This document shows, in pieces, positions 64 through 22,370 of a DNA stretch of 24,000 bases. The stretch lies in the NCBI RefSeq assembly GCF_900112425.1, contig NZ_FOLP01000001.1, positions 696,082-720,081 of the forward strand, given 5' to 3'. The translations under genes and the position numbers were made by a program. Each line of letters starts with the position of its first letter. Position 1 is the first letter of the stretch. This DNA is from Variovorax sp. OK212 (GTDB lineage Bacteria > Pseudomonadota > Gammaproteobacteria > Burkholderiales > Burkholderiaceae_C). The notes below the pieces were generated by a model. The model was not told where the DNA came from and searched no databases. It saw only the letters and a list, made by a program, of their open reading frames with translations.

Positions 64-2124
64 TCAGGCCGTCGTTGCTTCGGGTTTCTTGGAGACCAGC
101 GTCAGGATGTCGTAGCTGGCCACCAGCTCGCCGTCCTGGTTGGTCACCTCGACGTCCCAGGCCACCACGCCCTGGCCCTGGCCGGCGGCGTCCTTCTTGT
201 TGCGGTCGATCTTGCGCTTGCAGGTCAGGCGCGCGCGGATGGTGTCGCCGATGCCCACCGGCTTGACGAAGCGCAGCGTGTCCAGGCCGTAGTTGGCCAG
301 CACCGGGCCCGGCGCCGGCGATACGAACAGGCCGGCCGCGGCCGACAGCACGAAGTAGCCGTGCGCGATGCGCTTGCCGAACGGCGACTCCTTGGCCGCC
401 ACTTCGTCGAAGTGCATGTAGAAGTAGTCGCCCGAGATGCCGCCGAAGGCCACGATGTCGGCCTCGCCCACCGTGCGGCGGTGCGTGAGCAGCGAGTCGC
501 CGATGCGCAGGTCTTCGAAGTAGCTGCGAAACGGGTGCACCGCGCTCTCGCGCACGGCCGCGCCGCGCACGTGTTCGCCGGTGACGGCGGCCAGCATGGT
601 GGGCGAGCCCTGCACGGCGGCGCGCTGCAGGTAGTGCTTCACGGCGCGCAGGCCGCCGAGCTCTTCGCCGCCGCCCGCGCGGCCGGGGCCGCCGTGCTTG
701 AGCTGCGGCAGCGGCGAGCCGTGGCCGGTCGATTCGGCGGCGGCTTCGCGGTCGAGCACCAGCAGGCGGCCGTGCCAGGCGGCGGCCACTGGAATGGCCT
801 TGGCCGCGATGGCCGGGTCGCGCGTGACCAGCGTGCCCACGAGGCTGCCGCGGCCGCGCGCGGCCAGGGCCAGCGCTTCGTCGATTCCGTCATAGGGCAT
901 GAGCGTGCTGACGGGGCCGAAGGCCTCGACGTCGTGCGCCGCGTCGTGTTCGAGCGGCTTGCGGCTCAGCAGCAGCGTGGGCGCGAAGAACGCGCCCTGG
1001 GCCACGCCGTCGCCCACGGGCGAGAAGCCGTCGCGCTCGCCGTACACCAGCTCGGCGCCCTGCAGCAGCGTGGCCACGCGTTCGGCCACGTCGGCCTGCT
1101 GCGCGTGCGAGGCGAGGGCGCCCATGCGCACGTTGTCGAGCGAGGGGTCGCCCACCACGGTCTTGGCCAGCCGCGCGCGCAGGCGCTCGGCCACCGCGTC
1201 CAGGTGCTGGCGCGGCACGATGGCGCGGCGGATGGCCGTGCATTTCTGGCCAGCCTTGGTGGTCATCTCGCGCGCCACTTCCTTCACGAAGAGGTCGAAC
1301 TCCTCGTCGTCGGGCGTGACGTCGGGCGCGAGGATCGCGCAGTTGAGCGAGTCGGCCTCGGCGTTGAACGGGATCGACTGGCGCACCAGGTTCGGGTGCA
1401 CGCGCAGCTTGGCGGCGGTGTCGGCCGAACCGGTGAAGGTGACCACGTCGGGCCCCTCGAGCCGGTCGAGCAGGTCGCCGGTGCTGCCGATCACCAGCTG
1501 CAGGCTGCCTTCGGGCAGGATGCCCGACTGCACCACCAGCCGCATCATGGCCTCGGTGAGGTAGCTGGTGGCCGTGGCCGGCTTGCCGATGCACGGCATG
1601 CCTGCCAGGAAGCTGGGCGCGAACTTCTCGAGCAGGCCCCACACCGGGAAGTTGAACGCGTCGATGTGCACCGCCACGCCGCCGCGCGGCACCAGGATGT
1701 GCGTGCCCGCGAAGCCGCCCTTCTTGCCCAGCGGGAAGGCCGGGCCTTCGTGCACCAGGTTGCCCGAGGGCAGCTCGTTGGTGCCGATGCCGGCATAGGC
1801 GCTGAGCGTGCCCGCGCCGCCCTCGATGTCGATCCAGCTGTCGGCGCGCGTGGCGCCGGTGTGGGCCGAGACGGCGTACAGCTGCTCCTTGTTCGCGGCC
1901 AGGTACTTGGCCAGCGCCTTCAGGCGTTCGGCGCGCTGCTGGAAGTCGAGCTTCATGAGCGCGGGGATGCCGGTGCGGCGCGCGTAGGCGAGCGCCTCGG
2001 CGAAGTCGATGGCCTCGGCGTGCGTGGCGGCCACGGGCTTGCCGTTGACGGCGCTGTGCAGCTGCTGGGAGGCCTGCTGGCCGATCCAGCGGCCGGCGAT
2101 GTAGCTTTGGAGGGTGGCGGTCAT
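64..2124 (-). CDS. paaZ: PaaZ, bifunctional oxepin-CoA hydrolase / 3-oxo-5,6-dehydrosuberyl-CoA semialdehyde dehydrogenase (aldehyde dehydrogenase + MaoC hot-dog fusion)
   Basis: 686-aa product from the ATG at 2124 (MTATLQSYIAGRW...) inside track ORF 64..2445. The N-terminal ALDH fold carries the catalytic-Cys motif GQKCTAIRR. The C-terminal MaoC-like hydratase region contains FGKRIAHGYF. I rejected the 107 codons upstream of this ATG because they translate the REP-like intergenic repeat (Arg/Pro/Ser-rich). Confidence 0.9.
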   Translation of the reverse strand: MTATLQSYIAGRWIGQQASQQLHSAVNGKPVAATHAEAIDFAEALAYARRTGIPALMKLDFQQRAERLKALAKYLAANKEQLYAVSAHTGATRADSWIDIEGGAGTLSAYAGIGTNELPSGNLVHEGPAFPLGKKGGFAGTHILVPRGGVAVHIDAFNFPVWGLLEKFAPSFLAGMPCIGKPATATSYLTEAMMRLVVQSGILPEGSLQLVIGSTGDLLDRLEGPDVVTFTGSADTAAKLRVHPNLVRQSIPFNAEADSLNCAILAPDVTPDDEEFDLFVKEVAREMTTKAGQKCTAIRRAIVPRQHLDAVAERLRARLAKTVVGDPSLDNVRMGALASHAQQADVAERVATLLQGAELVYGERDGFSPVGDGVAQGAFFAPTLLLSRKPLEHDAAHDVEAFGPVSTLMPYDGIDEALALAARGRGSLVGTLVTRDPAIAAKAIPVAAAWHGRLLVLDREAAAESTGHGSPLPQLKHGGPGRAGGGEELGGLRAVKHYLQRAAVQGSPTMLAAVTGEHVRGAAVRESAVHPFRSYFEDLRIGDSLLTHRRTVGEADIVAFGGISGDYFYMHFDEVAAKESPFGKRIAHGYFVLSAAAGLFVSPAPGPVLANYGLDTLRFVKPVGIGDTIRARLTCKRKIDRNKKDAAGQGQGVVAWDVEVTNQDGELVASYDILTLVSKKPEATTA

Positions 2125-2144
2125 GTGCGATGTCCTTGTATGGC

Positions 2145-2260
2145 TCCTTCCCCTTGCGGGGGAAGGTGGGGATGGGGGCTGCGCCCAACGGGCGCTGCGC
2201 TTCGTTCGAGGCCGTCGTGCCCCCGCCCCGACCCTTGCCCGCAAGGGGAGGGCGCAAGGC
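2145..2260. repeat. Composite REP-like palindromic element (two inverted 31-nt modules flanking a central hairpin) between the transporter genes and paaZ
   Basis: Left module 2149-2179: TCCCCTTGCGGGGGAAGGTGGGGATGGGGGC. The reverse complement of the right module 2219-2249 is TCCCCTTGCGGGCAAGGGTCGGGGCGGGGGC, identical at 25/31 positions. Each module holds its own hairpin: CCTTCCCC/GGGGAAGG at 2146-2166 and CCCTTGC/GCAAGGG at 2232-2247. The central hairpin GCGCCC-AAC-GGGCGC is at 2181-2195. Confidence 0.7.
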
Positions 2261-2275
2261 AGGGTGGCACGAGGG

Positions 2276-3003
<728 letters not shown>

Positions 3004-3007
<4 letters not shown>

Positions 3008-19210: not shown

Positions 19211-20248
19211 CTAGAGAATCCGGTTGAACCACAGCAGCGACAGCCCGGCCGACAACAGCGTGAGCACGGCGGCGCCCATCGCGAACAGCGCGGAGATTTC
19301 GGTTTCCTTCTTCTCCACGGTGAGCTTGGAACTCAGCGTGTTGTAGACCTTCTTCAGGTCGTCGGCGGTGCCCGCGTAGAAGTACTCGGCATTGGTCTTG
19401 TTGGCGATGGCCTTGAGCGTGTCCTCGTCGAGCCGCACGCGCATCGACCAGCCCTCGAAGCCGATGGTCTCGCCGTCCACCGTGCCCACGCCCACCGTGT
19501 AGATGCGCACGCCGCGGTCGGCCGCGGCCTTGGCTGCGTCGAGCGGGTCGACGCCGGTGGTGCGCTGGCCGTCGGTCAGCATGATGATCGCGGCCGAGGT
19601 GAACGAGCCGGGCGCCACGGGCGTGAAGTCCTTGAGCTTCTTCTCCGACTGGTCGATGGCCGCGCCGCGCTGGCGGCTCGGCGCGCTGAACTGCTCCACG
19701 TCCAGGCCCGCGTCGGGGAACAGCGTGGCCAGCGACACCACGATGGCATTGCCCGTGGCGGTGGCGCGCTGCAGCTGGAAGCTGTCGATGGCGGTCACCA
19801 GGTCTTCGTGGTTGGTGGTGGGCAGCTGCGCCACCTGCGCGCTGCCCGCGAAGGCCACCACGCCCACCTTCACGCTGCGCGGCAGGTCCTTGATGAAGCT
19901 CTTGGCCGCTTCCTGCGCCGCCACCAGCCGGTTGGGCAGCACGTCGGCCGCGCGCATGCTGCCCGACACGTCCATCGCCAGGATGATGGTCTGCTGGTTC
20001 GACGGCAGCACCACCACCGCCATCGGCCGCGCCGCGGCCACCAGCATCGCGGCCATGGCCAGCAGGAACAGCAGCGGCGGAAGATGCCTGCGCAGGCTCT
20101 GCGCCGGGCCCATGGCCTCGCGCACGATCGACAGGCTCGCGTAGCGCACCGCCAGCTTCTTCTTGCGCCGCAGCAGCCACAGGTAGAGCAGGATCAGCAG
20201 CGGCAAGGCCGCCAGCAGGTAGAGGAATTGAGGCCAGAGAAAGGTCAT
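19211..20248 (-). CDS. BatA-like membrane-anchored von Willebrand factor A (VWA) domain protein
   Basis: 345 aa from the ATG at 20248 (MTFLWPQFLYLLAALPLLILLYLWLLRRKKK...). This ATG overlaps the DUF58 stop as ATGA. Two N-terminal TM helices separated by a strongly basic loop, MIDAS motif DVSGSM, TDG, and a C-terminal TM helix. The upstream part of track ORF 19211..20488 is rejected. Confidence 0.85.
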   Translation of the reverse strand: MTFLWPQFLYLLAALPLLILLYLWLLRRKKKLAVRYASLSIVREAMGPAQSLRRHLPPLLFLLAMAAMLVAAARPMAVVVLPSNQQTIILAMDVSGSMRAADVLPNRLVAAQEAAKSFIKDLPRSVKVGVVAFAGSAQVAQLPTTNHEDLVTAIDSFQLQRATATGNAIVVSLATLFPDAGLDVEQFSAPSRQRGAAIDQSEKKLKDFTPVAPGSFTSAAIIMLTDGQRTTGVDPLDAAKAAADRGVRIYTVGVGTVDGETIGFEGWSMRVRLDEDTLKAIANKTNAEYFYAGTADDLKKVYNTLSSKLTVEKKETEISALFAMGAAVLTLLSAGLSLLWFNRIL

Positions 20249-21243
20249 GCTGCCACCGCCTTCATGCCAGCCGAGCCGCTGCGCGTGCGGCGCTTGCGCA
20301 GGTCGGCGAAACGGACGATGGCTTCCACCAGGTCGTCGTTGGTCGAGAGTTCGAGGGCATCGACGCCGGCCTTGGCCAGCGCCGCGCGCAGTGCGGTCTC
20401 GCGCTCGGACGCCAGGCGCGCGAAGCGCTTGCGAAAGCCGGCGTCGTGCGTGTCGACCCAGAGCTGCTCGCCGGTCTCGGCATCGCACAGCGGCACCAGG
20501 CCCAGGTCGGGCAGCTCGAGCTCGAGCGGATCGAACAGGCGCACGGCAATCACCTCATGGCGTTGCACCAGTTGCCCGAGCGGGCGTTCCCAGCCGGGCT
20601 CGCTCAGGAAGTCGGACACCACGAACACGGTGGAGCGCCGGGGCATCAGCGCGGCGGCCGACTTCAGCAGGTCGTCCAGCCGCGTCATGCCTTTTTGCAC
20701 GGGCGCCACTTCGGCCTGGTCGGCGCGCTTTTCCATTGCGTGCAGCAGGTGCAGCACATGGCGGCGCCCGGTGCGCGGCGGAATCACGGCCTCCAGGTCG
20801 TTGCCGTAGACCAGCGCGCCCACCCGGTTGCCGTGCCGCGTGAGCAGCCGCGCCAGCACGCCGACGAAGCCGGCGGAAATCTCGCGCTTGGCCTTCAGGC
20901 CCGAGCCGAAGTCCACCGAGCGGCTCAGGTCGAGCACGAACCAGGCGGCCATCTCGCGGTCTTCGGTGAACACGCGCACATGCGGCGTCTGCAGCCGCGC
21001 GGTGACGTTCCAGTCAATGTGGCGCACGTCGTCGTGGTGCTGGTATTCGCGCAGGTCGGCCAGGTCGAGCCCGGCACCGCGCATCAGCGTGCGGTAGTCG
21101 CCCTGCAGCAGCCCGTCGAGGCGGCGGATCACGGTCCACTCGAGCCGGCGCAGCGCGCGCTCGGTCCCGCCGGCCACGGCCGCTTCGGCGGCCAGCCGTT
21201 CGTCGTTGGCGGCCGCGGGGGCCTTACGCCACCAGCTTTTCAT
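20245..21243 (-). CDS. DUF58 family protein (MoxR-associated, VWA-like)
   Basis: 332 aa. Contains the conserved DUF58 segment GDYRTLMRGAGLDLADLREYQHHDDVRHIDWNVTAR. No obvious TM helix. Canonical position between MoxR and the VWA protein. Confidence 0.82.
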   Translation of the reverse strand: MKSWWRKAPAAANDERLAAEAAVAGGTERALRRLEWTVIRRLDGLLQGDYRTLMRGAGLDLADLREYQHHDDVRHIDWNVTARLQTPHVRVFTEDREMAAWFVLDLSRSVDFGSGLKAKREISAGFVGVLARLLTRHGNRVGALVYGNDLEAVIPPRTGRRHVLHLLHAMEKRADQAEVAPVQKGMTRLDDLLKSAAALMPRRSTVFVVSDFLSEPGWERPLGQLVQRHEVIAVRLFDPLELELPDLGLVPLCDAETGEQLWVDTHDAGFRKRFARLASERETALRAALAKAGVDALELSTNDDLVEAIVRFADLRKRRTRSGSAGMKAVAA

Positions 21244-21244
21244 G
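21228..21244. repeat. Direct repeat copy 1 (GCCACCAGCTTTTCATG), includes the DUF58 start codon
   Basis: 17/17 identical to 21361-21377. Read on the minus strand it is CATGAAAAGCTGGTGGC. Confidence 0.9.
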
Positions 21245-21360
21245 CGATTTCAAGGGGCACACCGCGGAACCGGCTTTGCCGGGCCGCGGGTGTTGCCCCC
21301 TGCAAGGGGGGTGGCGAAGCGACACGGCGTGCGCGAAGACTGGGGGTGTGCTCATTTCAG
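21245..21360. repeat. 116-bp GC-rich structured insert between moxR and the DUF58 gene, carrying a REP-like hairpin
   Basis: Bounded by a 17-bp perfect direct repeat. Contains the hairpin CCCCCT-GCA-AGGGGG (21296-21310) followed by GTGGCGA, which resembles the CCCCTTGC..GGGG..GGTGGGGA core of the 2149-2179 module. A second imperfect long hairpin, ACCGCGGAACCGGC-TTT-GCCGGGCCGCGGGT, lies at about 21261-21291. Confidence 0.6.
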
Positions 21361-22370
21361 GCCACCAGCTTTTCATGTTCGAGCGGCTTGGGGGGAGCGG
21401 GCACTGCACGCATGATCTTCTCGACCAGCCCGTCGGGTGTCAGGCCCTCGGACAAGCCTTCATAGGAAAGCGTCACGCGATGGCGCAGCACATCGGCCAC
21501 CAGCGCGGTCATGTCTTCGGGCAGCGCATAGCTGCGCCCGCGCAGCAGGGCCAGGGCGCGCGCGCCTTCGGTCAGGCTGATGCTGGCGCGCGGGCTGGCG
21601 CCGAAGGTGATGAAGCGGCGCAGGTCCTTCAGGCCGTGCTTCTCGGGCGTGCGCGTGGCCGACACCAGCTTCACCGCGTACTGGATCAGCGAAGGGTCCA
21701 CATACACGCGGCGCGCCTCGGCCTGCAACGCGGCCAGCTGCTCGGTCGTGGCCACGGCCGTGGCCTCGACCGGCGGGCCGATCACGCGCTGCACGATCAC
21801 GAACTCTTCCTCGTCGCTCGGGTAGTCGACCAGCACCTTCATCATGAAGCGGTCGACCTGCGCCTCGGGCAGCGGGTAGGTGCCTTCGGTCTCGATGGGG
21901 TTCTGCGTGGCCATCACCAGGAAGGGGCGCGGCACCTTGTGCGTTTCGCCGGCAATGGTGACCTGGCGTTCCTGCATCACCTCGAGCAGCGCGCTCTGCA
22001 CCTTGGCCGGCGCGCGGTTGATTTCGTCGGCCAGCAGCAGGTTGGCGAACACCGGGCCCAGCGAGGTGCTGAACTCGCCCGTCTTCTGGTTGTAGATGCG
22101 CGTGCCCACCAGGTCGGCCGGCACCAGGTCGGGCGTGAACTGGATGCGCTTGAAGTGGCCGCGCACCGTGTCGGCCAGCGTCTTGATGGTGAGCGTCTTC
22201 GCAAGGCCCGGCACGCCCTCGACCAGCAGGTGCCCGCCCGCGAGCATGGCGACCATCACGCGCTCCAGGAAGCGGTCCTGGCCGACGACCACGCGCTTCA
22301 CCTCGTAGAGGATCTGCTCCATCAGTTCGGCGGTGCCCGCGGGCGTGGGGTTGGCGGTCTCTGTGCTCAT
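21357..22370 (-). CDS. MoxR-family AAA+ ATPase
   Basis: 337 aa. Walker A GVPGLAKT, Walker B LLADEINRAP, followed by ATQNPIE and the length typical of MoxR proteins. Confidence 0.9.
   Translation of the reverse strand: MSTETANPTPAGTAELMEQILYEVKRVVVGQDRFLERVMVAMLAGGHLLVEGVPGLAKTLTIKTLADTVRGHFKRIQFTPDLVPADLVGTRIYNQKTGEFSTSLGPVFANLLLADEINRAPAKVQSALLEVMQERQVTIAGETHKVPRPFLVMATQNPIETEGTYPLPEAQVDRFMMKVLVDYPSDEEEFVIVQRVIGPPVEATAVATTEQLAALQAEARRVYVDPSLIQYAVKLVSATRTPEKHGLKDLRRFITFGASPRASISLTEGARALALLRGRSYALPEDMTALVADVLRHRVTLSYEGLSEGLTPDGLVEKIMRAVPAPPKPLEHEKLVA
21361..21377. repeat. Direct repeat copy 2 (GCCACCAGCTTTTCATG), encodes the MoxR C-terminus HEKLVA
   Basis: 17/17 identical to 21228-21244, offset 133 bp. 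Confidence 0.9.

What the first reader, a model, noticed from the sequence alone, without database searches (positions are those of the whole stretch)
21228..21377. 133-bp insertion/duplication at the moxR-DUF58 junction, flanked by a 17-bp perfect direct repeat that preserves both protein ends
GCCACCAGCTTTTCATG occurs at 21228-21244 and again at 21361-21377. On the coding (minus) strand copy 2 reads CAT GAA AAG CTG GTG GCC TGA, giving the MoxR C-terminus HEKLVA-stop. Copy 1 contains the DUF58 start (ATG AAA AGC TGG TGG = MKSWW). In the MoxR frame copy 1 would read CAT GAA AAG CTG GTG GCG TAA, the same HEKLVA-stop. Deleting one repeat plus the intervening 116 bp therefore reconstructs an ancestral locus. 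In that locus the DUF58 start lay inside the last 20 nt of moxR, and both proteins keep exactly their present termini. The intervening DNA is highly structured and carries a hairpin core related to the REP-like modules at 2149-2249. This looks like the footprint of a small non-autonomous element (or a repair-associated duplication) that uncoupled two translationally overlapping genes. The leftover second copy of the MKSWW start now heads a spurious ORF (track ORF 21224..21409).
Basis: seen in the sequence. Interest (0 to 1): 0.65.

Follow-up and report, generated by a model that had tools for sequence, protein, structure and literature searches.

The report
Mobile hairpin element splitting overlapping genes
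A 116-base hairpin-forming repeat, one copy of a large and apparently undescribed family in Burkholderiales, inserted into the overlap between two Variovorax genes, and a 17-base duplication kept both genes whole and may keep their translation linked.

Summary
GCCACCAGCTTTTCATG occurs exactly twice, 133 bp apart, and the two copies carry the MoxR end and the DUF58 start as described.

The insertion reading is confirmed. Strains about 99.4% identical carry either this filled site or an empty site 133 bp shorter. The empty site has one 17-mer and a 20-nt gene overlap. Four other Variovorax lineages are all empty.

The 116-nt insert is not local debris. It belongs to a roughly 100-nt, three-hairpin family with more than 200 copies sampled across Burkholderiales. 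The family has strong compensatory base-pair changes, no Rfam match, and no description in the literature I could search.

Copies lie in the sense orientation. They start within 11–15 nt after the upstream gene's stop codon in about 80% of cases, and most sit between co-directional genes. About half of those between-gene copies carry an ORF running from the upstream stop to the downstream start. This recalls mycobacterial MIRUs.

It ends at the old moxR stop, inside DUF58, so coupling may be relayed rather than lost.

The link to the repeat at 2149–2249 is not supported. The enzyme that moves the element, and the reason the duplication is 17 bp, remain unknown.

The parts
21357..22370 (-). moxR (AAA+ ATPase). 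Its last six codons, HEKLVA, lie in the upstream 17-mer copy. Its present stop codon, TGA at 21357-21359, is supplied by the insert.
   Evidence: ORF list. Pfam AAA_3, AAA_lid_2, bpMoxR. In empty alleles the gene ends GCG TAA instead of GCC TGA.
21361..21377 (-). Upstream copy, in gene sense, of the duplicated 17-mer CATGAAAAGCTGGTGGC. It encodes the MoxR C-terminus and contains a now redundant copy of the DUF58 start codon (ATG 21374-21376).
21352..21360 (-). 5' leader of the insert, CTGAAATGA. It brings the stop codon TGA, followed one base later by an ATG (21353-21355).
   Evidence: Absent from empty alleles. TGAAAT(R)(R)G and ATGA leaders recur at the 5' edge of many family copies.
21249..21351 (-). 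Core of the repeat element, 103 nt. It consists of a C-run, hairpin H1 (21319-21334), hairpin H2 CCCCCC-TTGC-AGGGGG (21296-21311), the long bulged hairpin H3 (21258-21295), and the tail TGTGCCCCTTGAA.
   Evidence: Covariance model hit at 21244-21374, 78.2 bits, E = 2.5e-14. Family boundaries come from flank profiles and from 98-nt tandem arrays. Covariation in H3. Coordinates.
21245..21248 (-). Last four bases of the insert (ATCG), outside the conserved core.
21228..21244 (-). Downstream copy of the 17-mer. It contains the functional DUF58 start (ATG 21241-21243). It is followed by G and then TAA (21224-21226), the ancestral moxR stop codon.
20245..21243 (-). DUF58/VWA gene. The N-terminus MKSWWRKA is conserved in 110 of the 120 best homologues.
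21224..21376 (-). Candidate relay ORF, 50 codons plus stop: MKSWWPEMSTPPVFAHAVSLRHPPCRGQHPRPGKAGSAVCPLKSHEKLVA*. It starts at the duplicated DUF58 ATG, and a second in-frame ATG lies 1 nt after the moxR TGA. It reads through the whole element and stops at the ancestral moxR TAA, 17 nt inside DUF58.
   Evidence: Translation. Family-wide enrichment of such ORFs. Translation itself has not been shown.

Best explanation
The 133 extra bases are a derived insertion in one Variovorax lineage. One copy of a roughly 100-nt, GC-rich, three-hairpin interspersed element landed in the 20-nt overlap between moxR and the DUF58 gene.

Shown:
- The overlapping arrangement is ancestral, and the site is polymorphic among near-identical strains.
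- The integration left two copies of the 17 bp that run from the base before the DUF58 start codon to the second base of the last moxR codon.
- The element's own leader supplies the new moxR stop (GCC TGA replaces GCG TAA).
- As a result, both proteins keep their sequences.

Family features (shown statistically):
- The family is widespread in Burkholderiales.
- Its hairpins are maintained by compensatory changes on the sense strand.
- Copies sit in the sense orientation directly after stop codons, mostly between co-directional genes.

Inferred:
- The element is a non-autonomous mobile sequence that is tolerated inside operons. It terminates the upstream ORF, has few or no stop codons in any sense frame, and often leaves an ORF that runs from the upstream stop to the downstream start.
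- In this locus, ribosomes finishing moxR could restart at the ATG 1 nt after the TGA, or at the duplicated MKSWW ATG. They would translate through the hairpins and terminate at the old TAA inside DUF58. That reproduces the ancestral termination-reinitiation geometry.

The enzyme or process that moves the element is not identified. The origin of the 17-bp duplication is also open: a staggered cut, or a microhomology or template-switch copy of a donor's spacer between genes.
For: Insertion and its direction:
- Filled versus empty alleles differ by exactly 133 bp in contigs encoding identical proteins.
- Ten outgroup junctions from four lineages are all empty, with the same junction sequence.
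- MKSWWRKA is conserved in 110 of 120 homologues.

Family membership:
- blastn found 15 places on Variovorax and other Comamonadaceae plasmids.
- The covariance model scores 78 bits on the insert.

Structure:
- Outer H3 pairs show 16-57 double changes among 108 copies.
- G.U pairs outnumber A.C pairs 54 to 23.

Placement:
- The upstream gene is on the same strand in 100 copies against 13 on the opposite strand, and in 85 against 6 in the second data set.
- The stop codon ends 0-11 nt before the element in 77 of 100 copies, and within 15 nt in 83 of 104.
- The element abuts a stop codon in 19 of 33 copies even next to convergent genes.

Other polymorphic sites:
- In Variovorax secondary replicons (records filed as plasmids), three more filled/empty loci place the element exactly at stop/start junctions.

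Relay ORFs:
- 37 of 68 between-gene copies have one, against 18.8±2.9, 22 and 24.3±2.7 in three controls.
- The ORF ends overlap the flanking codons as NTGA in 20 of 37 on the left and 15 of 37 on the right.
- The window ORF is shown. L101 has the same design at the same gene junction.
Against: - No terminal inverted repeats and no autonomous partner were found.
- Flanking repeats of 8 nt or more are not enriched in the family. The 17-bp duplication is so far unique. Only L010 (9 nt), L190 (8 nt) and L014 (TTGA) show anything comparable.
- Presence of the insert does not follow the flanking SNPs. Only 2 sites split filled from empty alleles, while 14 split the window and L002 from all the others. 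Recombination or re-excision is therefore involved.
- Relay ORFs occur in only about half of the between-gene copies. The excess over controls is about 1.5 to 2-fold, and GC-rich DNA is open by default.
- The invariant tip of H3 was imposed by my search pattern.
- Nothing here shows transcription or translation.
Confidence: 0.8

Rival explanations
1. The element and both repeats are ancestral. The 'empty' alleles arose by precise deletion between the two 17-mers.
For: Perfect 17-bp direct repeats 116 bp apart are a good substrate for slippage or recombination. Presence of the insert is not congruent with the flanking SNPs. A distant MAG (L101) also has a family copy at the moxR/DUF58 junction.
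Against: All ten outgroup junctions from four Variovorax-level lineages are empty and share the same sequence. The DUF58 start MKSWWRKA, which requires the overlap sequence, is conserved across the genus. L101 lacks the duplication and has a different DUF58 start, so it is a separate event. Excision may still occur as a secondary process.
Confidence: 0.05
2. No dedicated transposase is involved. A donor's whole spacer between genes (stop codon, element, sequence up to the next start) was copied into the target. The copying happened by template switching or by homology-facilitated illegitimate recombination, using microhomology at gene ends. The duplication is whatever target sequence lies between the two joints.
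For: - The insert carries non-core ends (CTGAAATGA and ATCG) that look like a donor's stop/restart context.
- L190 has GGTGGCCTGAcATGgaacaCCCCC, nearly the window's left joint GGTGGCCTGAaATGagcacaCCCCC.
- In filled alleles at other loci, the last codons of the upstream gene are replaced by similar but not identical ones: GCC AAG TGA becomes GCG AAA TAA, and GCC TGA becomes ACA TGA or TCA TGA.
- The duplicated length differs from site to site (4, 8, 9 and 17 nt) and each duplication covers at least the upstream gene's stop codon or the gene overlap.
- The family shows no fixed target duplication and no inverted ends.
Against: More than 200 copies at unrelated loci, and spread over several families of Burkholderiales, are hard to reach by rare illegitimate events alone. 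Tandem 98-nt arrays and sharply defined core boundaries suggest a defined unit. No donor locus with the window's exact flanks was found.
Confidence: 0.3
3. It is a classical miniature inverted-repeat element, moved by a DDE transposase that makes staggered cuts. The 17-mer is its target-site duplication.
For: The insertion is flanked by a perfect direct repeat. The window copy has a weak inverted pair, AAGGGGCACACC / GGTGTGCTCATT, 83% complementary.
Against: - That inverted pair is not a conserved family feature. The family ends are GGCTCGCCCCC... and ...TGTTCCNSGAA.
- Flanking repeats are not enriched, and where they are seen their lengths differ.
- From my own knowledge, 17 bp is outside the usual 2-14 bp range for bacterial transposase families.
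- The strong sense-orientation bias is not expected for such elements.
Confidence: 0.08
4. It is a REP/REPIN-type element, moved as single-stranded DNA by a RAYT (an IS200/IS605-like Y1 transposase) that recognises the bulged hairpin.
For: It is a GC-rich imperfect palindrome with a conserved asymmetric internal loop in H3 (C opposite TT, or A/AT, G/AC, T/TC). It has high copy number, lies in 3' and between-gene positions, and shows no target duplication in most copies.
Against: The units are about 100 nt with three different hairpins. They occur singly or in direct tandem arrays, not as inverted doublets. No Y1 transposase gene was seen next to copies. The one close inverted pair checked flanks pyrF. 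The orientation follows the gene, and I could not test it against replication direction. The 17-bp duplication is unexplained by this mechanism.
Confidence: 0.12
5. The sequence is above all a functional RNA module, such as an mRNA stabiliser, a processing site or a translation regulator. It is kept at each locus by selection, and its spread is incidental.
For: Compensatory changes and the G.U excess indicate selection on the sense-strand fold. Copies sit inside transcription units directly after stop codons. The long form ends with a GGAG 5-9 nt before the downstream ATG.
Against: The site is polymorphic among near-identical strains, and all other Variovorax lineages sampled lack the element at this junction, so it is not needed there. 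The neighbouring genes are unrelated in function. No T-run follows H3, so it is not an intrinsic terminator. This reading does not exclude mobility.
Confidence: 0.2
6. The insert encodes a small protein, with the element acting as a mobile micro-gene.
For: An ATG lies 1 nt after the moxR stop and heads a 43-codon ORF. An ATG lies near the 5' edge in 53 of 108 copies.
Against: The frame of that ATG relative to the conserved hairpin is uniform (20:18:15). Loop lengths vary by non-multiples of three. Paired columns co-vary, which fits a fold rather than a peptide.
Confidence: 0.02

Closest known systems
MIRUs (mycobacterial interspersed repetitive units)
   Same: Both are short repeats of 40-100 bp found between genes of operons. 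Both lie in the sense orientation, alone or in tandem arrays. Both carry an ORF whose ends overlap the neighbours' stop and start codons with -4 spacing. Both appear mobile with no known transposase. [quoted passage not shown] Here the matching features are 98-nt tandem arrays, NTGA overlaps at both ends and an excess of relay ORFs.
   Different: The host phylum differs (Betaproteobacteria versus Actinobacteria), and no sequence relation was tested. This family is defined by three hairpins with covariation. The reading frame through it is not conserved. It abuts the upstream stop codon and can bring its own stop. Relay ORFs are present in only about half of the between-gene copies.
REP / BIME / REPIN elements with RAYT transposases
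   Same: Both are GC-rich imperfect palindromes with bulges, present in many copies per genome, located after genes and between genes of operons, and co-transcribed. Most copies have no target duplication.
   Different: REPs are 20-40 nt single palindromes, typically arranged in inverted pairs and linked to a RAYT gene (Nunvar 2010, PMC2817692, abstract seen). This unit is about 100 nt with three distinct hairpins. It occurs in direct tandem arrays, has a strict sense orientation, and shows no RAYT nearby in the loci inspected.
Bacterial MITEs (Correia/NEMIS, ERIC, RUP, BOX)
   Same: Both are non-autonomous small repeats that fold as RNA, are co-transcribed, show presence/absence polymorphism between strains, and can supply or alter gene ends.
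   Different: Those elements have terminal inverted repeats and a fixed short target duplication (from my own knowledge). Neither feature is found here.
Integron attC sites
   Same: Both are structured imperfect palindromes of 57-141 nt, placed directly after the stop codon of a gene in the sense orientation, with conserved unpaired bases in the stem.
   Different: No RYYYAAC / GTTRRRY core sites were evident on reading the sequence. Copies are scattered after ordinary chromosomal genes, not in cassette arrays beside an integrase. The attC features are recalled from my own knowledge and were not tested.

Membership tests
Burkholderiales three-hairpin, stop-abutting repeat family (defined here) | A significant match to a covariance model built from 108 copies (C-run, H1, H2, H3). 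| tested here: met
   Window 21244-21374 (-), 78.2 bits, E = 2.5e-14. The window copy was itself part of the training alignment, so its score is inflated. Independent support comes from blastn hits at 80-91% identity to plasmid copies.
Burkholderiales three-hairpin, stop-abutting repeat family (defined here) | Sense orientation, with the 5' edge within about 15 nt of the upstream gene's stop codon. | tested here: met
   The moxR TGA lies inside the leader, 11 nt before the C-run. The family rates are 77 of 100 and 83 of 104.
MITE (DDE-transposase-mobilised) | Conserved terminal inverted repeats. | tested here: not met
   The family ends GGCTCGCCCCC... and ...TGTTCCNSGAA are not complementary. 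Only a weak 12-nt pair exists in the window copy.
MITE (DDE-transposase-mobilised) | A target-site duplication of fixed length at most copies. | tested here: not met
   Flanking repeats are no more frequent than in permuted controls in 134 and 98 copies. Where repeats are seen, their lengths are 4, 8, 9 and 17 nt.
MITE (DDE-transposase-mobilised) | A full-length autonomous element sharing the termini. | not tested
   Whole genomes could not be scanned. No such element was noticed in the fetched loci.
REP / REPIN-RAYT | Short palindromes arranged as inverted pairs. | tested here: not met
   Copies are single or in direct 98-nt tandem arrays.
REP / REPIN-RAYT | Association with a RAYT (Y1 transposase) gene flanked by the repeats. 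| not tested
   Only a few loci with two copies were inspected. In L186 the copies flank pyrF. No genome-wide test was possible.
MIRU-like between-gene repeats (a functional class, not a homology group) | Located between co-directional genes, in the sense orientation. | tested here: met
   The context is co-directional on both sides in 66 of 126 and 57 of 104 copies. The upstream gene is on the same strand in 100 against 13, and in 85 against 6. In the window the element sits between moxR and DUF58.
MIRU-like between-gene repeats (a functional class, not a homology group) | An ORF through the repeat whose start and stop overlap or abut the neighbours' stop and start codons. | tested here: met
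   In the window: ORF 21224-21376. In the family: 37 of 68 against 19-24 expected. The -4 overlap occurs at the left end in 20 of 37 and at the right end in 15 of 37.
MIRU-like between-gene repeats (a functional class, not a homology group) | Sequence homology to mycobacterial MIRUs. | not tested
   No MIRU sequences were at hand. Given the phylum and the composition, homology is not expected.
Any Rfam family | A score at or above the family's gathering threshold. | tested here: not met
   There were no hits in the window. The best sub-threshold hits were 11-14 bits against thresholds of 40-100. In 15 other loci that carry the element, no hit overlapped it.

The most novel reading that the evidence does not exclude
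Burkholderiales may harbour a previously undescribed class of mobile 'operon-safe' spacers. These would be roughly 100-nt structured elements that carry their own stop-restart signal (TGA-n-ATG) and, in the long form, a Shine-Dalgarno sequence. They would be open in all sense frames. They would integrate at stop/start junctions by a non-canonical process that duplicates exactly the junction, 4 to 17 nt depending on the gene overlap. Ribosomes would then be relayed across the insert and translational coupling would survive. A second, unrelated repeat in the same window (2127-2275) follows the same design, which suggests that this layout recurs in unrelated between-gene repeats of this genome.
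Probability: 0.35. Interest if true: 0.78.

Novelty: new variant of a known kind. Interest (0 to 1): 0.62.

Why it matters
A repeat insertion between two genes is ordinary in itself. Three things make this case useful.

1. It captures a clean before-and-after pair for an insertion into a 20-nt gene overlap that leaves both proteins unchanged. This shows how overlapping genes can be pulled apart without loss.

2. It exposes a large structured repeat family across Comamonadaceae, Sphaerotilaceae and Alcaligenaceae. The family has no Rfam entry, and I found no description of it in the literature held here. It confounds assembly (one sample's contigs break inside it) and gene calling (ORFs run through it).

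3. The family's placement and its stop-to-start ORFs parallel the mycobacterial MIRUs in an unrelated phylum. This makes one idea directly testable: that mobile repeats persist inside operons by relaying ribosomes. The natural filled and empty Variovorax alleles provide the isogenic comparison.

Tried and rejected
1. Known RNA families. Rfam at gathering and at E ≤ 10 gave nothing relevant.

2. Relation to the window repeat at 2149-2249. The covariance model gave E = 0.52, so it is a different family.

3. A small protein gene in the element. The ATG frame relative to the hairpin is uniform and loop indels break the frame.

4. A general target-site duplication. Two scans against permuted nulls were negative.

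5. Terminal inverted repeats. The flank profiles show none.

6. A nearby transposase.
- The Methylibium copy lies antisense inside an ORF annotated 'transposase' that has only an N-terminal HTH_Tnp_1 domain. This was uninformative.
- The inverted pair in L186 flanks pyrF.
- L201 was listed but not pursued.

7. An intrinsic terminator. No T-run follows H3.

8. Literature. The core sequence string gave no hits. Searches on Variovorax or Comamonadaceae repeat terms returned nothing relevant. Nunvar 2010 mentions Variovorax only in passing.

9. Polarity from the SNP phylogeny of five close strains. This was inconclusive because the population recombines. Polarity was settled by the outgroups instead.
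Full report
**Observation**

The 17-mer GCCACCAGCTTTTCATG is present at 21228-21244 and 21361-21377, 133 bp apart. No other match exists in the window even with three mismatches allowed, and none of 100 shuffles gave two matches.

All genes here are on the minus strand.
- The ORF at 21357-22370 is a MoxR-type AAA ATPase ending ...PLEHEKLVA followed by TGA.
- The ORF at 20245-21243 is a DUF58/VWA protein starting MKSWWRKA.
- A BatA/VWA gene follows, and a trypsin-like protease gene precedes.
- In the moxR frame, the downstream 17-mer reads CAT GAA AAG CTG GTG GCG TAA.

**Empty sites and polarity**

Look-ups of the exact MoxR and DUF58 proteins returned contigs of two kinds.
- L001 and L002/L006 are filled: the DUF58 gene starts 114 nt after the moxR gene ends.
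- L003, L004 and L008 are empty: the two genes overlap by 20 nt.

The alignment shows a clean 133-bp difference, with the empty alleles reading ...CTCGAA CATGAAAAGCTGGTGGC GTAAGG....

In a further sample, the assembly breaks inside the insert's hairpin (L005 ends there and L007 starts there). This is the behaviour expected of a repeat or of a mixed population.

The organism is a Variovorax. The 120 best DUF58 homologues are 89-96% identical, and 110 of them start MKSWWRKA. All of those that carry a name are from Variovorax, except one record named 'Acidovorax cavernicola'.

Junctions were fetched from Variovorax sp. H27-G14, V. paradoxus, V. boronicumulans and the record named 'Acidovorax cavernicola'. 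All are empty, with the identical junction GAACATGAAAAGCTGGTGGCGTAAGG. The overlap is therefore ancestral and the filled allele is derived.

Among five close strains (99.3-99.4% identity over 5.6 kb), presence of the insert does not follow the flanking SNPs. Two sites separate filled from empty alleles, while 14 separate the window and L002 from all the others. The allele is therefore moving by recombination, or is being lost again, within a recombining population.

**What the insert is**

blastn of the 116 nt found 15 related places on nine Variovorax, Comamonadaceae, Methylibium and Diaphorobacter plasmids and secondary replicons, at 77-91% identity.

- A scan of one genome per species, using the hairpin core GGNCCGGCRRAGCCGGNNSCRCGG, hit Variovorax, Polaromonas, Hydrogenophaga, Rhodoferax, Hylemonella, Aquabacterium, Piscinibacter, Rhizobacter, Roseateles, Ramlibacter, Acidovorax, Achromobacter, Bordetella and Pigmentiphaga.
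- A metagenome scan used the 5' half of the Variovorax subtype.

The common architecture is: a stop codon; 0-11 nt; a C-run; a variable hairpin H1; hairpin H2 (CCCCC-loop-GGGGG); and a long bulged hairpin H3.

Tandem arrays with a 98-nt period (L163, L179, L221), together with flank conservation profiles, delimit a core of about 100 nt. It runs from GGCTCR-CCCCC to ...CGG-TGTTCCNSGAA.

RNAalifold on 108 distinct copies predicts H2 and H3. The outer H3 pairs show 16-57 sequences with changes on both sides, and an inner pair switches C-G to U-A in 22 sequences. The tip of H3 is invariant only because my search pattern required it. G.U pairs outnumber A.C pairs 54 to 23, which points to folding of the sense strand.

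No Rfam family matches. Full-text searches found no description of the family.

A covariance model built from the 108 copies finds one copy in the window: 21244-21374, 78.2 bits. It does not recognise the repeat at 2149-2249 (10.2 bits, E = 0.52).

**Where copies sit**

I called coding frames from GC3-GC2 (the excess of G+C at third over second codon positions).
- The gene upstream is on the element's strand in 100 of 126 copies and on the opposite strand in 13. In the independent metagenome set the figures are 85 and 6 of 104.
- In 77 of 100 copies, the upstream gene's stop codon ends 0-11 nt before the C-run. In 83 of 104 it ends within 15 nt.
- By construction, this test cannot see stops further than 20 nt upstream. 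Such cases fall into the remaining roughly 20%.
- The element abuts a stop codon in 86 of 101 copies followed by a co-directional gene. It still does so in 19 of 33 copies followed by a convergent gene. The association with stop codons is therefore not only a by-product of operon constraints.

The filled and empty alleles show part of the reason: the element can bring its own stop. In the window, GCG TAA became GCC TGA, with the C and the TGA belonging to the insert. Leaders of the form TGAAAT(R)(R)G or ATGA recur at the 5' edge in several genera.

**Other insertion polymorphisms**

Three more filled/empty pairs were found on Variovorax secondary replicons.
- L014 versus L141 and L142. The empty junction is CGT TGA G ATG CAG. 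The filled allele has 158 extra nt, with TTGA on both sides. It ends ...CATGGAGAT, which places a GGAG 7 nt before the ATG.
- L009 versus L138. The empty junction is AAG TGATG TTC.
- L013 and L139 versus L140. The empty allele has a 22-nt spacer after GCC TGA.

In all three, the element sits exactly at the stop codon of the upstream gene. The codons next to the insert differ more between alleles than the 3% background: GCC AAG TGA versus GCG AAA TAA, and GCC versus ACA or TCA.

**Flanking duplications**

Across 134 and 98 copies, the longest direct repeat shared by the two flanks is no longer than in permuted pairs. The window's 17-mer is the outlier.

Short duplications do appear at operon junctions.
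- ATGA or NTGA lies on both sides of many copies.
- L190 has CTGACATG on both sides, and L010 has TGAGATGAA.

In every such case the repeated segment covers at least the upstream gene's stop codon or the gene overlap: 4 nt for ATGA overlaps and for L014's TTGA, 8-9 nt for TGAnATG, and 17 nt for the 20-nt overlap here. A fixed-stagger transposase does not predict this. Selection on variable joints would, and so would copying a donor's stop-to-start spacer through microhomology. Part of the 8-9-nt identities may be coincidence, because the element's leader itself resembles TGAnATG.

**Relay ORFs**

The element is not a conserved coding sequence. An ATG lies near its 5' edge in 53 of 108 copies, and the frame of that ATG relative to H3 is uniform at 20:18:15.

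Even so, the cores are poor in stop triplets. 105 of 188 have none in any sense frame, against 47±5 in shuffles. On the antisense strand the figures are 77 against 31±5.

I then took the 68 copies that abut an upstream gene and have a co-directional gene starting within 200 nt. Of these, 37 have an ORF that meets three conditions: it starts within -25 to +12 nt of the upstream stop; it is open through the core; and it stops within -30 to +12 nt of a candidate downstream start. The controls gave:
- 18.8±2.9 with the spacer shuffled;
- 22 with the spacer reverse-complemented;
- 24.3±2.7 with first-order Markov resampling.

With tight limits (-4 to +6 at both ends), the count is 22 against 11 and 12.9±2.1.

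The ORF start overlaps the upstream stop as NTGA in 20 of the 37. Its stop overlaps the downstream start as NTGA in 15, and as TGAnATG in 6.

This is the design reported for mycobacterial MIRUs. According to a 2025 review, MIRUs insert at start codons so that an ORF in the repeat is coupled to the gene with -4 spacing (PMC12548453).

**The window in that light**

Neither the empty junction (GCTCGAACATG) nor the filled one (GAAATCGCATG) has a Shine-Dalgarno sequence before the DUF58 ATG. DUF58 therefore probably depends on termination-reinitiation. That is inference.

In the filled allele, moxR ends at TGA (21357-21359). An ATG follows after one base (21353-21355). The duplicated MKSWW ATG (21374-21376) is in the same frame. 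This frame stays open through all three hairpins and ends at TAA (21224-21226), the ancestral moxR stop, 17 nt inside DUF58.

The geometry needs the period to be 1 mod 3, and 133 is. L190 (145 nt) and L010 (164 nt) likewise put the left ATG in frame with the right TGA. L101, a distant MAG with an independent family copy at the same moxR/DUF58 junction, has an ORF from 3 nt after the moxR stop to 2 nt before the DUF58 ATG.

'Uncoupled' may be the wrong word. No expression data were available.

**Mechanism: shown and inferred**

Shown:
- The insertion is derived and polymorphic.
- The insert belongs to a dispersed structured family.
- The family abuts stop codons in the sense orientation.
- Both proteins are unchanged.
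- The element supplies the new moxR stop codon.

Supported statistically: an excess of stop-to-start ORFs, and folding of the sense strand.

Inferred: relay translation, and mobility as a non-autonomous element.

Unknown: what moves the element, and the origin of the 17-bp duplication.

I give 0.8 to the core statement. Within it, I give roughly 0.3 to the sub-hypothesis that integration is microhomology-driven or template-switch-driven rather than enzyme-specific.

**Comparison and novelty**

- The closest functional analogue is the MIRU. The differences are host phylum, the covarying hairpins, the abutment to stop codons and the unfixed reading frame.
- REP/REPIN membership fails on arrangement: direct arrays, not inverted pairs. 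The link to a RAYT gene is untested.
- MITE membership fails on inverted ends and on a fixed target duplication.
- No Rfam family matches.

I rate it a new variant of a known kind: small non-autonomous repeats that live between the genes of operons.

Noticed in passing
window 2121-2279 (minus strand): A second, unrelated repeat lies between genes: an inverted doublet of CCCCATCCCCACCTTCCCCCGCAAGGGGAAGG-type modules, with 46-nt arms. It sits between an ABC-transporter ATPase gene (2276-3007) and an aldehyde dehydrogenase gene (ending its start at 2124). A 52-codon ORF (2121-2279) runs through it. That ORF's ATG overlaps the upstream TGA as ATGA, and its TGA overlaps the downstream ATG as ATGA. 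This is the same relay layout in a different repeat family.
   Followed up: partly
L163 14337-14640; L179 478-680; L221 3681-3880: The element forms direct tandem arrays with a 98-nt period, with units joined as ...GGTGKNRCTTG|GCTCG.... No stop or start codons lie between units. This resembles minisatellites such as MIRU-VNTR loci.
   Followed up: partly
L014 500-560; L190 9650-9700; L010 510-565; also L146, L211, L227, L252: Many copies carry an optional 3' module of about 20-60 nt. It has a conserved GTTTCATGCGTYG motif and ends in TGGAG(A/C) 5-9 nt before the downstream ATG. The element thus appears to bring a Shine-Dalgarno sequence. In L014 this module is part of the polymorphic insert.
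   Followed up: partly
L101 6190-6360 (MAG JAFKGD010000005): A diverged family copy occupies the same moxR/DUF58 junction in a distant Burkholderiales MAG (GCC TGA AAT ATG CCCACC...). It has no 17-mer duplication, and the DUF58 start there is MFFKRRR. It looks like an independent hit at the same gene junction.
   Followed up: partly
L005 end (4113) and L007 start (1): In sample SRR4235200, two contigs end and begin inside hairpin H3 of the insert. The repeat, or a mixture of filled and empty alleles, breaks the assembly.
   Followed up: no
L009 vs L138; L014 vs L141/L142; L013/L139 vs L140: At three other polymorphic sites, the codons immediately next to the insert differ far more between filled and empty alleles than the 3% background. 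Examples are GCC AAG TGA versus GCG AAA TAA, and a 6-nt length difference at the downstream gene's N-terminus. It looks as though flanking bases came in with the element.
   Followed up: no
alignment A5, columns 205 and 219-220 (H3): The single base 5' of the CCGGC stem co-varies with the two bases 3' of GCCGG: C with TT, A with AT, G with AC, and T with TC. This keeps an asymmetric internal loop or bulge, the kind of feature that structure-specific recombinases read.
   Followed up: no
L015 360-400: The 5' part of the element is partially duplicated in tandem: AGCTCGCCCCCAGGCTGCGCGCAATGCATTGA, followed by a full copy. Its orthologue L012 lacks this.
   Followed up: no
L016 2501-2572 (Methylibium petroleiphilum plasmid RPME01): A family copy lies antisense inside a 339-aa ORF annotated 'transposase'. 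That ORF has only an N-terminal HTH_Tnp_1 domain. It is probably an over-extended ORF call through GC-rich repeat DNA.
   Followed up: partly
L031 (contig binned as Synechococcus sp. UW140): A typical family copy sits on a contig assigned to a cyanobacterial MAG. The contig is probably a mis-binned Burkholderiales contig.
   Followed up: no
P0001 (445 aa) and P0014 (340 aa, starts VRFPLHPNLSNMKSWW): Two DUF58 homologues in the database have unusual lengths or N-terminal extensions that read through the junction. They are likely gene-calling artefacts at this overlap.
   Followed up: no
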